This document shows, in pieces, positions 8,684 through 12,105 of a stretch of DNA of 64,000 nucleotides. Source of the DNA: a virus; IMG/VR virus record IMGVR_UViG_3300008448_000033, positions 1-64,000 of that record. The stretch is one strand, 5' to 3'. Under the pieces are notes generated by a model, which did not search any database, was not told where the DNA came from, and saw only the letters and a list, made by a program, of their open reading frames with translations. Position 1 is the first letter of the stretch, and every line of letters starts with the position of its first letter. The translations under genes and the position numbers were made by a program.

Positions 8684-8983
8684 TTATTTTTTAGTCAATG
8701 ATTTGTTAAATTTCTTGATCCAAGTTTCTGCCGCTTGCTCTGCGAATTTCTTTGCTTTTGCCAAGTCAACATGATTTCTTGGATAGAGAGTGCCAATATA
8801 CTCCCTTGAAACCTTAATGTCAACCGCTGTTAGCCAAAGAGGATCATCGCTATAGCCAACATCATACACTTGCCAAACCTGCAATTCAACCATCCCAAGT
8901 TTAGCACAATGTCCACCTCTACCGTCTTTCTTCCACTTCCAAGCAAGTTTCTTCATGTTACCCTCAAAATAATTACAATGCAA
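8684..8983 (-). CDS. hypothetical protein
   Basis: Likely start at MKKLAW after a GAGGG SD. Confidence 0.5.
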   Translation of the reverse strand: MHCNYFEGNMKKLAWKWKKDGRGGHCAKLGMVELQVWQVYDVGYSDDPLWLTAVDIKVSREYIGTLYPRNHVDLAKAKKFAEQAAETWIKKFNKSLTKK

Positions 8984-9278
8984 GGCGTGTTTTTACACCA
9001 AAGAGAACCGGCTCATGCTTCGCTTTTTATCGGTTTGCCACTATTCTGGTTCACATGAACGGGCTAGTGTCCTATCCCCCAACCACAGCGACCTACGCTA
9101 GATTGCAGTTACCCTATCAGCTTTTTCTCGCATAGTCAAGTGAATAAAAGAGTTTCTAAACTACGCTTTCGGGAGCGTTAGCATTCCGCCTCTTAACGAG
9201 ATTTCTAGCTGCACTTGTGGATTTTGTCTCACTCTTTAAAAGATGGCTACCTTTAAGCCTACTTCCCTCGCATTGTAA
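8973..9278 (-). ncRNA. ~306-nt structured RNA containing a split 23S rRNA H43/H44 (L11-binding, GTPase-associated centre)-like element
   Basis: 13-bp terminal helix UUACAAUGCGAGG/CCUUGCAUUGUAA; GGAAGUAGGCUUAAAGGUAGCCAUCUUUUAAAGAG matches the H43 pattern; GUGUAAAAACAC is an H44-like hairpin near the 3' end; lies directly downstream of tRNA-Leu. Confidence 0.7.
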
Positions 9279-9284
9279 CACGAT

Positions 9285-9372
9285 TGGTGGGCAAGGTGGG
9301 AGTCGAACCCACAATGTCTAAGGTGACGCCGGAGTTTGAAGCCGGTGGATATGCCAATTCTCCTACTCGCCC
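9285..9372 (-). tRNA. tRNA-Leu(CAA)
   Basis: GGGCGAG/CTTGCCC acceptor, loop TTCAAAC, long V-arm, GTTCGA T-loop, encoded CCA. Confidence 0.88.
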
Positions 9373-9379
9373 GAAAAGT

Positions 9380-9466
9380 TGGTGGGGAAAGTCGGAATCG
9401 AACCGACAAGGGATTGCTCCCGGCAGATTTTAAGTCTGCTGTGTTTACCTATTTCACCATATCCCC
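9380..9466 (-). tRNA. tRNA-Leu(TAA)
   Basis: GCAGA-CTTAAAA-TCTGC anticodon arm, long V-arm, CCA. Confidence 0.92.
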
Positions 9467-9493
9467 ATTAAACTCATTCTACCATAGATCTAT

Positions 9494-9760
9494 TTACTTT
9501 TTCAACTTCTTTGTATTTTTAGTTAGGTTGTCGAACATCGTTGCTACCGGCAACCCTTTCAACCAATCATCGTACATTTTCTTCATCTTGTCAATACCTT
9601 GTTCAAGGTGCCATACTTCCTCACCTGTTTCCATGTGTTTGACAAGGTACATCGTTGGGGCTTCGATCTCTCGCAATTCTACAGCAATTACAACACCAAG
9701 TCCACTCATAAAACCATAGACTAGATCTCCAATTTTGTGCTTGGTGCCTTCCTCATTCAC
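9494..9760 (-). CDS. small SH3/KOW-like family protein
   Basis: HKIGDLV...LGVVIAV...YLVK. Confidence 0.55.
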   Translation of the reverse strand: MNEEGTKHKIGDLVYGFMSGLGVVIAVELREIEAPTMYLVKHMETGEEVWHLEQGIDKMKKMYDDWLKGLPVATMFDNLTKNTKKLKK

Positions 9761-9996
9761 CCATCATACTCCTCTACGGTTGAAGTGTCAATAATACTTG
9801 CAAGGTTATTTGCACCTCTACGCATATAATCAGTACCGCCATCCGTAAAGATTTCACCACACTTGCACTTGACAAAATCGTGACGATGCTTGCTCACAAT
9901 CTCGTCACCACACTTTGCACACTTGCAACTATTACGGATTATACGGTAATTCTTCGACATTTTCAACCTTTTTGTAGTCCTTGAACATATCTTCAT
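9757..9996 (-). CDS. conserved phage zinc-binding protein
   Basis: NSCKCAKCGDEIVSKHRHDFVKCKCG..FTDGG motif. Confidence 0.65.
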   Translation of the reverse strand: MKICSRTTKRLKMSKNYRIIRNSCKCAKCGDEIVSKHRHDFVKCKCGEIFTDGGTDYMRRGANNLASIIDTSTVEEYDG

Positions 9997-10168
9997 GGCA
10001 ATGATCTTTATCGTTCATAACAAAACTATAGAAATAATAAGGATAACGAGAGTCATTTTCAATGTCAAGAATAATCAATAAATCCCCGTAGTATTCATCT
10101 TCCTCGTTGATGTTGACAAGCATATCACCAATGTTGTATCTTGTCAAATCTTTTCTATGCTCGCCCAT
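9932..10168 (-). CDS. small SH3/KOW-like family protein
   Basis: YNIGDML...LLIILDI. Confidence 0.5.
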   Translation of the reverse strand: MGEHRKDLTRYNIGDMLVNINEEDEYYGDLLIILDIENDSRYPYYFYSFVMNDKDHCHEDMFKDYKKVENVEELPYNP

Positions 10169-10326
10169 GTATAACCACCATCCTCCTGTGGTGAGTCAAA
10201 CCATTTGACAATATAATAAAAATTGTCATAGTGAACAACTATACCATAAGGTTGTGGATGCTCCAAATTATTCCATGTTGACATTTTGACAAACTCGCCA
10301 ACATCAAAAGTTTTCTCTCTCCGCAT
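10144..10326 (-). CDS. small SH3/KOW-like family protein
   Basis: FDVGEFV...YGIVV...YIVKWF. Confidence 0.6.
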   Translation of the reverse strand: MRREKTFDVGEFVKMSTWNNLEHPQPYGIVVHYDNFYYIVKWFDSPQEDGGYTWASIEKI

Positions 10327-10486
10327 TAGTTATCAACCTCAAACTTTTATTGGAGTGGAATCCATTACGGTTCATACTCTGCCAGAACACTTCAAAAATG
10401 TCAAGACCATTATCATTATGAATCTGGACAATAGTACCGGGACCAACAAATAGTGGATGCGTTACAATACTACCAATTGCAAACAT
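10304..10486 (-). CDS. small SH3/KOW-like family protein
   Basis: FAIGSIV...PGTIVQI...FEVFW; ATG overlaps the tRNA-Thr CCA. Confidence 0.6.
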   Translation of the reverse strand: MFAIGSIVTHPLFVGPGTIVQIHNDNGLDIFEVFWQSMNRNGFHSNKSLRLITNAERENF

Positions 10487-10559
10487 GGTGCCTCCGACTA
10501 GAATCGAACTAGTAATTCATCATTACAAGGGATGAGTTATACCATTTAACTACAGAGGC
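10486..10559 (-). tRNA. tRNA-Thr(TGT)
   Basis: GCCTCTG/CGGAGGC acceptor, loop CTTGTAA, CCA. Confidence 0.88.
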
Positions 10560-10572
10560 GTCAAGAACAAAT

Positions 10573-10653
10573 TGGTGTTGAGCCTTCGTATGGGATTTGA
10601 ACCCATATTAACGATGCCTCGTTATCCTGCCGGTTAGATCAACGAAGGCTCAA
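10573..10653 (-). ncRNA. tRNA-like RNA with extended acceptor stem and GNRA tetraloop in place of an anticodon loop
   Basis: TTGAGCCTTCGT/ACGAAGGCTCAA stem, D-arm, AACGA-GGCA-TCGTT, ATGGG-TTCAAAT-CCCAT T-arm, 3' CACCA. Confidence 0.75.
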
Positions 10654-10655
10654 AT

Positions 10656-10730
10656 TGGTGACTCCAACCAGATTTGAACTGGTGTAATAGCCTTGAAAGG
10701 GCTATGTCCTAACCGCTAGACGATGGAGCC
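10656..10730 (-). tRNA. tRNA-Glu(TTC)
   Basis: TAGCC-CTTTCAA-GGCTA, CCA. Confidence 0.92.
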
Positions 10731-11160: not shown

Positions 11161-11214
11161 AACAACACCTCCTATGCCTAAATAGTACCACAGATTACAA
11201 AAAGACTTAAAAAT

Positions 11215-11289
11215 TGGCTGGACGGGCTGGAGTCGAACCAGCGATAGGAAAATTAACAGTTTTCTGCCTTGCCTCTTGGCTACCGTCCA
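11215..11289 (-). tRNA. tRNA-Asn(GTT)
   Basis: GAAAA-CTGTTAA-TTTTC, G discriminator, CCA. Confidence 0.88.
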
Positions 11290-11317
11290 ACTATATCATA
11301 CTCACTCTAAATTACAA

Positions 11318-11597
11318 CTTGAATCTAGTGGAGCAGGTTCTTTAAAATGGGTTCCATTCCACTCCCCGCTTTTCGGTAGTGATACCCTTATCGTATCACA
11401 TGATAGCTGCATTTCAACACAATTCGGTACAAGCCCATTTAGTTTTGGATAGCACTCGCACACAAGTAAATGTCACCTAGCAGTAACGCAAGGACTCGTT
11501 TTCGGTCTAAACACTATCCTCAAGACAGCAATGCCCTACCAGACGTTTAACAGCAGCTTTAAACGTACCTCATATGTATTACCTAACTAGATTCAAG
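11318..11597 (-). ncRNA. candidate ~280-nt structured ncRNA
   Basis: Perfect 12-bp terminal inverted repeat CTTGAATCTAGT/ACTAGATTCAAG, internal hairpins, no ORF in the track, inside tRNA cluster. Confidence 0.5.
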
Positions 11598-11617
11598 ACA
11601 TTATACACTCTTTATGT

Positions 11618-11740
11618 ACCAAGGCAAGGGGAACTTTCTTCACATTTCCCTTGCTAGACGCCCTATTATAATTCTCCCCTGTATACGGGACGGTGATCGA
11701 AGCGCCATACATCACCTAATTAATAATTTCCTGCCTTGGT
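11618..11740 (-). ncRNA. candidate ~123-nt structured ncRNA
   Basis: Terminal helix ACCAAGGCA/TGCCTTGGT; begins just downstream of promoter 11755-11783. Confidence 0.45.
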
Positions 11741-11754
11741 TTCTTGGTTAACTT

Positions 11755-11783
11755 ACTATAAACTATCATCGTACTCCTGTCAA
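11755..11783 (-). promoter_or_regulatory. sigma70-type promoter
   Basis: TTGACA-17nt-TATAGT. Confidence 0.7.
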
Positions 11784-11789
11784 CAAAAT

Positions 11790-11866
11790 TGGCGATCTGG
11801 GAGGGAATCGAACCCCCAACCTAAGAGGTAGAAGCTCTTTGCTCTATCCAATTGAGCTACCAGACC
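11790..11866 (-). tRNA. tRNA-Arg(TCT)
   Basis: AAGAG-CTTCTAC-CTCTT, CCA. Confidence 0.9.
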
Positions 11867-11872
11867 GCAAAA

Positions 11873-11901
11873 GATGTACCACAGATATTGGAACTTGTCA
11901 A
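11873..11901 (-). promoter_or_regulatory. sigma70-type promoter for tRNA-Arg
   Basis: TTGACA-17nt-TACATC with TG extension. Confidence 0.55.
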
Positions 11902-11974
11902 CGAAATCTACTCGTTGGGCGTGTACGGTGACGATGCGCGAGGAGGAACCGTAGGACGCCTCTGTAGGTACAAT

Positions 11975-12064
11975 TGGTGCGCCCGCTAGGAGTCGAACCT
12001 AGTCTAGGCGGTCATCTACCGCAAAGCGATTATAAGTCGCTCTCGCAATCCGATGCACGGGCGC
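11975..12064 (-). tRNA. atypical tRNA, TAT anticodon (nominal Ile), long V-arm, reduced D-arm
   Basis: GCGCCCG/CGGGCGC acceptor, AGCGA-CTTATAA-TCGCT, GCGGT/ACCGC V-stem, CCA. Confidence 0.75.
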
Positions 12065-12077
12065 GTTAACTTTGTAT

Positions 12078-12105
12078 ATCGTACCACAAACCACTTAATT
12101 GTCAA
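12078..12105 (-). promoter_or_regulatory. sigma70-type promoter heading the RNA cluster
   Basis: TTGACA-16nt-TACGAT with TG extension. Confidence 0.6.

What the first reader, a model, noticed from the sequence alone, without database searches (positions are those of the whole stretch)
8973..12105. RNA operon combining tRNAs with several translation-component mimics
Seen: within ~3.1 kb, behind three sigma70 promoters, lie 7 canonical tRNAs, one atypical UAU tRNA, an anticodon-less tRNA-like RNA, a hairpin with an anti-SD loop, two RNAs bounded by terminal helices and the 23S GAC-like RNA. Inference: a coordinated RNA-based system that reprograms or protects translation, mimicking tRNA, the 16S anti-SD and the 23S factor-binding site. 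This is my best candidate for an undescribed system.
Basis: inference. Interest (0 to 1): 0.75.

Follow-up and report, generated by a model that had tools for sequence, protein, structure and literature searches.

The report
Phage tRNA island with mimic RNAs
This stretch is an uncultured freshwater phage's tRNA gene island, which also carries three real, conserved look-alike RNAs (an odd isoleucine tRNA, a tRNA with no anticodon, and a copy of a ribosomal RNA domain); I found no sign that they work as one system, and three other claimed elements are no more than chance.

Summary
Partly confirmed. All genes lie on the minus strand.

- **Real:**
  - Seven canonical tRNAs.
  - A 90-nt tRNA(UAU) with a long extra arm (A, 11975-12064).
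  - An anticodon-less tRNA-like RNA (E, 10568-10653).
  - A ~300-nt free-standing copy of the 23S rRNA GTPase-associated centre (F, 8972-9279).
- **Evidence that A, E and F are selected RNAs:**
  - F scores 85.7 bits (E 1e-18) against a model built only from other phages. Its family shows strong covariation, including the rRNA base triple.
  - E has two relatives, and 14 of 24 pairs carry compensatory changes.
  - A belongs to a class found in at least 119 viral contigs.
- **Not supported:**
  - The "anti-SD" hairpin is one CCUCC pentamer.
  - The two "helix-bounded RNAs" have no homologues. Such inverted repeats occur 80 times in the window.
- **Not an RNA-only operon:** the stretch holds an HNH gene and five small ORFs.
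- **Not a coordinated system:**
  - In the two closest relatives F lies 14-27 kb away, beside a tmRNA gene.
  - None of 100 loci carrying an A-type tRNA holds an F.

This scan has noted the F, A and anticodon-less classes before on other DNA. I found none of them described in Rfam 15 or in the papers I could search.

The parts
12078..12105 (-). Sigma-70-type promoter upstream of the UAU tRNA (TTGACA, 16-nt spacer, TACGAT, with TG).
   Evidence: 10 of 12 matches. The relative G002 has three tandem promoters at the same place.
11975..12064 (-). A: a 90-nt tRNA(UAU) with a 3-bp D stem, A73-CCA, and an extra 5-bp arm whose loop shows GAU. Most likely an isoleucine tRNA for AUA.
   Evidence: It is 96% and 99% identical in G002 and G005, and the only differences are compensatory acceptor pairs. 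The class occurs in at least 119 viral contigs. AUA sites behave as Ile sites.
11918..11960 (-). B: a hairpin with CCUCC in its loop (the claimed 'anti-SD' element). A spacer structure; not supported as a mimic.
   Evidence: Fold. CCTCC is not enriched. No 16S similarity. No homologue in relatives. In G002 and G005 the UAU tRNA is followed directly by tRNA-Leu(UAA).
11873..11901 (-). Promoter-like site read by eye (TTGACA, 17-nt spacer, TACATC, preceded by TGTGG), just upstream of tRNA-Arg.
   Evidence: Read from the sequence. It does not pass the scan criteria.
11790..11866 (-). tRNA-Arg(UCU).
   Evidence: 66.1 bits.
11755..11783 (-). Promoter (TTGACA, 17-nt spacer, TATAGT; 11 of 12 matches) in front of element C.
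11618..11740 (-). C: an ORF-poor spacer with an 11-bp closing helix. Its 3' strand overlaps the next promoter (11600-11627). Not supported as an RNA gene.
   Evidence: z -2.5. No homologue, Rfam match or rRNA similarity. Inverted repeats of this size are common.
11318..11597 (-). D: a 280-nt spacer closed by a 12-bp inverted repeat. Not supported as an RNA gene.
   Evidence: z -1.7. No homologue, Rfam match or rRNA similarity. The window holds 80 comparable inverted repeats.
11215..11289 (-). tRNA-Asn(GUU).
10804..11160 (-). HNH homing-endonuclease-like ORF (118 aa) inside the tRNA island.
   Evidence: Weak Pfam HNH match. blastn matches to annotated HNH endonucleases of many phages. 43% identical to an ORF in G002's island.
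10738..10813 (-). tRNA-Lys(UUU).
10656..10730 (-). tRNA-Glu(UUC).
10568..10653 (-). E: an anticodon-less tRNA-like RNA. It has an 11-12-bp acceptor helix, a 3-bp D stem with GG in the loop, a 5-bp 'anticodon' stem sealed by a GGCA tetraloop, and a canonical T arm.
   Evidence: Fold z -4.1. Members in G002 (L205:1057-1141) and G005 (L208:3554-3636). 97% of cells are paired and 14 of 24 pairs show compensatory changes. The nearest ordinary tRNAs are phage tRNA-Gln genes.
10486..10559 (-). tRNA-Thr(UGU).
9494..10486 (-). Five small overlapping ORFs (60-88 aa), one with a DUF7695 domain.
   Evidence: The DUF7695 ORF has a 65%-identical homologue in G005's tRNA island.
9380..9466 (-). tRNA-Leu(UAA), preceded by a promoter-like site at 9476-9505.
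9285..9372 (-). tRNA-Leu(CAA).
8972..9279 (-). F: a free-standing mimic of the 23S rRNA GTPase-associated centre. It has a 14-bp closing helix (H42-like), an H43 copy, a variable arm of about 220 nt inserted near position 1089, and an H44 copy. It carries the U1072/(U1092-A1099) form of the base triple.
   Evidence: Model R1, built without this sequence, gives 85.7 bits and E 1.4e-18 at 8977-9274.

Best explanation
The stretch is the tRNA gene island of the early, promoter-rich region of an uncultured freshwater phage. It is a mosaic of independent modules, not one device.

(1) Codon supply. Seven ordinary tRNAs plus the UAU tRNA read A/U-ending codons (AUA, UUA, UUG, AGA, AAA, GAA, ACA, AAY). 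The phage's AT-rich genes beyond 16.5 kb use these codons heavily. The genes around the island avoid them.

(2) Mobile cargo. An HNH homing-endonuclease gene and small ORFs are interleaved, as in the T4 tRNA region.

(3) Three accessory RNA genes, each from its own conserved phage RNA family, have collected here.
- A is an isoleucine tRNA for AUA. Its extra arm displays GAU.
- E is a tRNA-Gln-derived RNA that cannot decode, because its anticodon loop is sealed by a tetraloop and its acceptor end is closed in a long helix. It most likely occupies a protein that recognises the tRNA body, or serves as a processing signal.
- F folds into a self-closed copy of the uL11- and GTPase-binding domain of 23S rRNA. 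It most likely acts off the ribosome as a decoy for a protein that recognises that fold. uL11 is the simplest candidate.

Shown here: the genes, their folds, their conservation and covariation, their separability, and the codon split.

Inferred: transcription from the sigma-70-type promoters, release by tRNA-processing enzymes, and every binding partner.

The anti-SD hairpin and the two helix-bounded stretches are promoter-bearing spacers.
For: - tRNAs.
- Codon match: ATA is 29% of Ile codons, TTA 33% of Leu, AGA 47% of Arg, AAA 69% of Lys, GAA 76% of Glu.
- Codon split: in 1-16.5 kb GC3 is 0.46 and TTA is 0.66 per 100 codons. In 16.5-64 kb GC3 is 0.26 and TTA is 2.96 per 100 codons. The genes at 12507-16382 have no ATA or AGA codons and a single TTA.
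- Transcription signals: promoters are enriched and no minus-strand terminator was found.
- F: model R1 was built from 11 other phages.
  - It finds window 8977-9274 at 85.7 bits, and finds the true E. coli 23S site at 46.5 bits.
  - Over 77 distinct members, 95.4% of cells are paired against 71.4% when shuffled, with 492 double changes against 160.
  - Pair 1058:1080 is Watson-Crick in 87 of 87 members. Triple 1072/(1092-1099) is C/C-G in 56 and U/U-A in 17, with 2 exceptions.
- E: three members, with 14 of 24 pairs compensatory.
- A: at least 119 contigs. At the window's ATA codons, relatives have ATT/ATC 27%, ATA 14%, Leu 15% and Val 15% (n = 281). This is an Ile-like profile, not a Leu-like one.
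- Separability.
Against: - No expression data exist. No RNA end, abundance or partner was measured.
- A, E and F each occur exactly once in all three related genomes. A functional link within this clade therefore cannot be excluded.
- The record is only 47% complete, and G005 only 17%.
- C and D might be lineage-specific RNAs that no comparative test can see.
- The alignments used for the pair counts were fitted to the models, which inflates the share of paired cells.
- The decoy roles of E and F are guesses.
Confidence: 0.7

Rival explanations
1. One reading: the tRNAs and mimics form one coordinated RNA system. It imitates tRNA, the 16S anti-SD and the 23S factor site together, to reprogram or protect translation, for example by blocking RelA or the stringent response, or a ribosome- or tRNA-directed defence.
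For: - A, E and F are all real and selected.
- All three are present once each in the three related genomes.
- In the window they share promoters, with no terminator between them.
- From established knowledge: RelA activation needs uL11 and an uncharged tRNA.
Against: - The anti-SD part is a chance pentamer.
- F lies 14-27 kb from the island in relatives, next to a tmRNA gene.
- 0 of 100 loci with an A-type tRNA hold an F.
- No E-like RNA was found in about 200 other phage loci, including 100 with F.
- E has no conserved free CCA end. The tails are CACCA, CAUCA and AUCC. RelA recognition of deacylated tRNA needs such an end.
Confidence: 0.1
2. E is not a decoy but a processing signal. It would be a tRNA-shaped punctuation mark that directs RNase P and 3' processing enzymes to cut the long tRNA/ORF transcript. 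Alternatively it protects neighbouring RNAs from exonucleases.
For: - It lies between two tRNAs in a terminator-free polycistron.
- The D/T elbow is intact and the T arm is nearly invariant.
- The T4 tRNA region also holds tRNA-like stable RNAs, rnaC and rnaD.
Against: - The five extra leader-trailer base pairs are kept by compensatory change. By established knowledge, such pairing hinders RNase P cleavage at position +1.
- The neighbouring tRNAs already supply processing sites.
- The sealed stem and its tetraloop (GGCA, GGGA, GGCA) are conserved, although a mere cutting signal would not need them.
Confidence: 0.25
3. The UAU tRNA is a class II, leucine-type tRNA that inserts leucine at AUA, like the nematode nev-tRNAs.
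For: It has a long extra arm and A73, as in tRNA-Leu. nev-tRNA-Ile(UAU) is charged only with leucine in vitro (PMC3333845).
Against: - At 281 aligned positions, the window's ATA codons face ATT/ATC (27%) and ATA (14%) more often than Leu codons (15%). Val is at 15%, as at ATT and ATC sites. True Leu codons face Leu at 55-64% and Val at 5-8%.
- The anticodon loop CUUAUAA and A73 fit isoleucine identity (established knowledge).
Confidence: 0.07
4. The non-tRNA elements are decaying debris: broken tRNAs and a captured scrap of host 23S rDNA.
For: - B, C and D have no homologues and weak fold statistics.
- E is closest to tRNA-Gln genes.
- One low-depth metagenome contig skips E between 10-nt direct repeats.
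Against: - For E and F this is excluded by compensatory changes across phages.
- F's closing helix differs in sequence in every member yet always pairs.
- F does not continue into 23S sequence, and Rfam's LSU model finds nothing.
Confidence: 0.05

Closest known systems
Phage T4 tRNA region (8 tRNAs, the segB homing endonuclease, and the stable RNAs rnaC and rnaD)
   Same: A cluster of tRNA genes on one strand, interrupted by a homing-endonuclease gene, that also encodes small stable non-tRNA RNAs of unknown function with tRNA-like ends.
   Different: T4's rnaC and rnaD are not members of the GAC-mimic family (best R1 score 12.8 bits, inside segB). T4 has no sealed-anticodon tRNA and no long-armed UAU tRNA.
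GTPase-associated centre of bacterial 23S rRNA (top of H42, H43 and H44; E. coli 1051-1108; the uL11 and thiostrepton site)
   Same: F copies H43 at 28 of 34 bases. It keeps pair 1058:1080, the H44 hairpin with A1095 and A1098, and the 1072/(1092-1099) triple in its U/U-A form. The family model scores the real rRNA site at 46.5 bits.
   Different: F is a separate ~300-nt gene closed by its own 14-bp helix, with an arm of about 220 nt inserted near 1089. It is not part of an rRNA. The window copy also has A1068, G1070 and A1097.
Phage GAC-mimic RNA family
   Same: F has every feature of the family and a full-length model match. Like 55 of 68 members, it lies within 500 nt of a tRNA.
   Different: In the closest relatives (G002, G005, L104) the mimic follows a tmRNA gene. 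Here it follows tRNA-Leu(CAA), and no tmRNA is found in the 85.6-kb record.
allo-tRNA(UAU) (Mukai et al. 2017, PMC5389517) and nematode nev-tRNA-Ile(UAU) (Hamashima et al. 2012, PMC3333845)
   Same: tRNAs with a long extra arm and the UAU anticodon.
   Different: A folds as 7/5, not 8/4 or 9/3. It is phage-borne, its arm loop shows GAU, and the codon evidence points to isoleucine rather than leucine or serine.
Canonical tRNA-Gln
   Same: E shares the D loop, T arm and overall cloverleaf. Its best matches among ordinary tRNAs are phage tRNA-Gln genes.
   Different: E has a four-base cap instead of a seven-base anticodon loop, five extra acceptor pairs, and no conserved CCA. It gets no Rfam tRNA match even at E = 10.

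Membership tests
Canonical tRNA (Rfam RF00005) | Score at or above the 29-bit gathering threshold. | tested here: met
   Met by the seven tRNAs (46.5-68.5 bits). NOT met by A (best match in the clan is tRNA-Sec at 28.7 bits) or by E (no match at E <= 10).
Phage GAC-mimic RNA family (model R1) | Full-length match to a model built from other members. | tested here: met
   Window 8977-9274(-): 85.7 bits, E 1.4e-18, model positions 1-174.
Phage GAC-mimic RNA family (model R1) | Sequence-variable closing helix ending in GG/CC, an H43 copy with a Watson-Crick 1058:1080 pair, an inserted arm, and an H44 copy. | tested here: met
   14-bp closing helix, A1058-U1080, arm base helix, and an H44-like GGUGUAAAAACACG.
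Phage GAC-mimic RNA family (model R1) | Base triple 1072/(1092-1099), either C/C-G or U/U-A. | tested here: met
   The window has U/U-A. The family has 56 C/C-G, 17 U/U-A and 2 exceptions.
Bacterial 23S rRNA (Rfam RF02541) | The element is part of an LSU rRNA gene. | tested here: not met
   No LSU match in the 85.6-kb record at E <= 10. Similarity ends outside 1055-1088 and the H44 piece.
Long-armed phage tRNA(UAU) class | 85-95 nt, CUUAUAA anticodon loop, extra hairpin with a UAGAU loop, A73. | tested here: met
   A has all four features. There are 74 distinct sequences from at least 119 contigs. The UAGAU loop was part of the search pattern. It was independent only in L085 and L154.
allo-tRNA (Mukai 2017) | 8/4 or 9/3 acceptor/T-stem geometry. 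| tested here: inconclusive
   The minimum-energy fold is 7/5. An 8/4 reading with U8-G is possible by eye.
nev-tRNA-like leucine recoding | AUA is read as leucine. | tested here: not met
   AUA sites have an Ile-like substitution profile. Aminoacylation itself cannot be tested here.
Sealed-anticodon tRNA look-alikes of phages (noted by this scan, some behind a Pth gene) | tRNA body with the anticodon loop replaced by a tetraloop, kept by selection. | tested here: met
   Three members with 14 of 24 compensatory pairs; caps are GGCA, GGGA and GGCA.
Sealed-anticodon tRNA look-alikes of phages (noted by this scan, some behind a Pth gene) | Adjacent peptidyl-tRNA hydrolase gene. | tested here: not met
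   No PF01981 or PF01195 match in the record. The record is 47% complete.
Y RNA-like YrlA (RF02553) | Score at or above 69 bits. | tested here: not met
   19.9 bits, and the match overlaps tRNA-Arg.
16S anti-Shine-Dalgarno mimic | Similarity to the 16S 3' end beyond chance, and conservation. | tested here: not met
   B against 16S scores 16, with a null of 17.6 +/- 2.3. CCTCC is not enriched. B is absent from relatives.

The most novel reading that the evidence does not exclude
Within this phage clade, the GAC mimic and the sealed tRNA look-alike act together as a two-part imitation of a ribosomal A site holding a tRNA. The UAU tRNA may take part as well. The imitation would trap a host factor that reads both the uL11/H43-H44 region and a tRNA body, for instance a RelA-type alarmone synthetase or a ribosome-dependent defence toxin. 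That would keep translation running during infection.
Probability: 0.1. Interest if true: 0.85.

Novelty: new variant of a known kind. Interest (0 to 1): 0.55.

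Why it matters
Phage tRNA islands are usually read as simple codon-supply kits. This one shows that the island also collects RNAs that imitate parts of the translation machinery. Three separate families sit in one 3-kb stretch, and I could not find any of the three in Rfam 15 or in the papers I searched.

Two points make the case testable:
- The GAC mimic also occurs in cultured phages: Aeromonas 4_4572, Cronobacter GAP32, Pseudomonas pf16 and UNO-G1W1, Xanthomonas XacN1, Acinetobacter ME3 and Ralstonia RSP15. Its partner and phenotype can therefore be tested at the bench.
- The sharp codon split between the island's neighbourhood and the later genes gives a clean natural case for the idea that early-made phage tRNAs serve late genes.

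The negative result matters too. The parts move independently, so they should be studied as separate modules, not as one operon.

Tried and rejected
- **Expression:** no RNA holder was listed among sequencing runs, so expression could not be tested. Read laying covered the region only patchily in four DNA runs.
- The close relatives of the flanking 91-aa ORF (P0001, P0002) could not be fetched.
- **Searches of cultured phages:** megablast found nothing for the region. A distant search hit only tRNAs and the HNH gene.
- **Distant relatives:** 80 metagenome loci and L001, found through the DUF2201 gene, were too distant (49-56% aa identity). They lacked B-F.
- **F against all E. coli genomes by blastn:** no match, because the similar stretch is too short. 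A direct alignment was needed.
- **E pattern scan of IMG/VR:** 0 hits.
- **F and the downstream 91-aa ORF as a conserved pair:** rejected. The ORF is absent next to F in G002, G005 and L104.
- **T4 rnaC and rnaD as family members:** rejected.
- **F as a group I intron:** rejected for the window, which has no RF00028 match. One member, L155, sits inside an intron.
- **AUA-to-Leu recoding:** rejected. A first attempt using the DUF2201 and AAA genes failed because they contain no ATA codons.
- **Pth cassette:** absent.
- **C and D as small-protein genes:** judged unlikely by eye, because no Shine-Dalgarno sequence lies at a usable spacing. Not searched further.
- **Literature:** six searches found no description of the GAC mimic or of E.

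Full report
**What the window is.** The window is the first 64 kb of an 85.6-kb IMG/VR viral record, estimated 47% complete. Identical short contigs occur in fungus-associated and freshwater metagenomes. No cultured phage is close. All genes lie on the minus strand.

**The observation.** Rfam passes seven of them.
- The stretch is not RNA-only. It contains an HNH endonuclease ORF (10804-11160) and five small ORFs (9494-10486), one with a DUF7695 domain.
- Sigma-70-type promoter matches are enriched, 28 against 9.2 +/- 2.9 expected. No minus-strand terminator is found. Co-transcription with the flanking ORFs is therefore plausible but not shown.

**F, the 23S-like RNA (8972-9279).**
- Similarity to rRNA:
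  - Positions 19-52 match E. coli 23S 1055-1088 at 28 of 34 bases. The score is 38 against 21.4 +/- 2.1 in shuffles, with 0 of 200 reaching it.
  - Real rRNA contigs in the metagenomes pile up on just this piece.
- Spread in viral contigs:
  - A degenerate H43 pattern hit at least 119 viral contigs. 117 of the 119 hits are not followed by canonical rRNA sequence.
- Shared plan of the family:
  - a closing helix of 9-24 bp that differs in sequence in every member;
  - the H43 copy;
  - an arm of 80-330 nt inserted near position 1089;
  - an H44 copy, followed by ACA;
  - the 3' strand of the closing helix.
- Model test. Model R1 was built from 11 other members.
  - It finds the window copy at 85.7 bits, E 1.4e-18.
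  - It finds the genuine E. coli site at 46.5 bits.
  - It finds copies in Aeromonas phage 4_4572 and Cronobacter phage GAP32, in unannotated gaps.
- Covariation:
  - On 77 distinct members, 95.4% of cells pair against 71.4% in shuffles, with 492 double changes against 160.
  - Pair 1058:1080 is Watson-Crick in 87 of 87 members, in four types.
  - The triple 1072/(1092-1099) is C/C-G in 56 members and U/U-A in 17, with 2 exceptions. The window carries U/U-A.
- Context and prior knowledge:
  - 55 of the 68 members that have a tRNA in their locus lie within 500 nt of one.
  - Rfam 15 has no family for it, and six literature searches found nothing.
  - This scan has noted the same family in at least 84 other genomes.

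**A, the UAU tRNA (11975-12064).**
- Fold: it folds with a 7-bp acceptor, a 3-bp D stem, a CUUAUAA anticodon loop, a 5-bp extra arm whose loop reads UAGAUGA, a normal T arm and A73-CCA.
- Conservation in relatives:
  - It is 96% identical in relative G002 and 99% in G005. The only differences in G002 are three compensatory acceptor pairs.
  - In both relatives tRNA-Leu(UAA) follows it directly. Metagenome contigs show the same junction.
- Spread of the class:
  - Two unrelated loci carry 90-nt UAU tRNAs with the same arm loop.
  - A pattern scan found at least 119 contigs with 74 distinct sequences of 85-95 nt.
- Which amino acid AUA encodes:
  - Long-armed UAU tRNAs are known as allo-tRNAs (PMC5389517) and as the leucine-charged nev-tRNAs (PMC3333845), so I tested the meaning of AUA.
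  - At 281 aligned codons in three relatives, the window's ATA faces ATT/ATC 27%, ATA 14%, Leu 15% and Val 15%.
  - This resembles ATT and ATC sites. It does not resemble Leu codons, which face Leu at 55-64% and Val at 5-8%.
  - Isoleucine is therefore the likely reading.

**E, the anticodon-less tRNA look-alike (10568-10653).**
- The fold has z -4.1. G002 holds an 86%-identical copy.
- Model R2 found a third, much more divergent copy in G005.
- Across the three, 97% of cells pair. 14 of 24 pairs have changes on both sides, including 9 of the 11 acceptor pairs and 3 of the 5 sealed-stem pairs. The caps are GGCA, GGGA and GGCA. This alignment was fitted to the model.
- The 3' tail is not a conserved CCA.
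- The nearest ordinary tRNAs are phage tRNA-Gln genes.
- About 200 other phage tRNA loci contain no such element, and no Pth gene is present.

**B, C and D.**
- The "anti-SD" hairpin rests on one CCTCC. The window holds 37, against 52 expected. It has no 16S similarity.
- C and D have weak fold statistics. They have no homologue in 200 loci or in the relatives, and no Rfam or rRNA similarity.
- Their closing helices are of a kind found 80 times in the window. Promoter-like sites lie in front of each unit: one in front of C, one overlapping C's 3' strand in front of D, and one at D's 3' edge in front of tRNA-Asn.
- I read them as spacers.

**Is it one system?** The evidence says no.
- In G002 (92% complete) and G005, F lies directly behind a tmRNA gene, at least 14 kb and about 27 kb from the tRNA island. 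L104 has the same arrangement.
- The window record has no tmRNA.
- E sits at a different place in each island.
- 0 of 100 loci with an A-type tRNA hold an F.
- The 2.5 kb between A and tRNA-Leu(UAA) is absent from both relatives.
- The island is a mosaic, as expected around a homing endonuclease.

**What the island does.**
- The tRNA set matches the phage's favoured codons.
- The codon split is sharp: in 1-16.5 kb GC3 is 0.46 and TTA is 0.66 per 100 codons. Beyond 16.5 kb GC3 is 0.26 and TTA is 2.96 per 100 codons. Four genes just upstream of the island contain no ATA or AGA codons and a single TTA.
- This fits early-made tRNAs serving later genes.
- The roles of E and F remain inferred. The preserved tertiary triple argues that F must fold like the ribosomal domain, so its partner probably recognises that fold.

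Noticed in passing
window 1-16500 versus 16500-64000; genes 12507-16382: Sharp compositional and codon split. In the promoter-rich first 16.5 kb, GC is 40-49%, GC3 is 0.46 and TTA is 0.66 per 100 codons. In the rest, GC is 29-42% (mostly 30-35%), GC3 is 0.26 and TTA is 2.96 per 100 codons. The four genes at 12507-16382 have no ATA or AGA codons and a single TTA.
   Followed up: partly
L206:1688-2366 (G002), L221:12655-13359 (G005), L104:6844-7526: In three related contigs the GAC-mimic RNA lies 60-65 nt downstream of a phage tmRNA gene, forming a conserved tmRNA-mimic pair. The window's record has no tmRNA.
   Followed up: partly
L155:4597-5025: One GAC-mimic module (R1 109.7 bits at 4729-4925) sits inside the 192-nt P6 insertion of an Rfam group I intron match of 64.8 bits.
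   Followed up: partly
L170:1591-1660: A minimal GAC mimic in which the H44-like hairpin follows H43 directly, with no inserted arm. It lies in a phage tRNA cluster.
   Followed up: no
L205:1495-1800 (G002, minus strand): By eye, a tRNA-Asn(GUU) split in its anticodon loop by an insert of about 230 nt with group-I-like core motifs, just downstream of an HNH ORF. Next to it (about 1400-1490) lies another tRNA-like stretch that ARAGORN does not call.
   Followed up: no
window 11975-12064 plus 9380-9466, against G005 3013-3203: The UAU tRNA and tRNA-Leu(UAA) are 99% identical between this phage and G005, while the other shared tRNAs are 71-78% identical. This suggests recent exchange of that two-gene module.
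   Followed up: partly
window 10567-10651: One low-depth (2x) freshwater contig skips element E exactly between 10-nt direct repeats (CACCAATTTG). It may be a strain variant without E.
   Followed up: no
L205:2700-2950 (G002, minus strand): Three tandem repeats of a strong promoter plus a short hairpin lie directly upstream of the UAU tRNA.
   Followed up: no
L092:3087-3162: ARAGORN calls a tRNA with a CUA (amber-reading) anticodon in a phage tRNA locus that also holds a GAC mimic.
   Followed up: no
window 13211-15628: A DUF2201 metallopeptidase/VWA gene sits next to an AAA_5 ATPase gene just upstream of the island. The DUF2201 gene has relatives at about 50% identity in at least 114 metagenome stretches, mostly marine. 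tRNA-Leu(UAA) often lies right behind it.
   Followed up: partly
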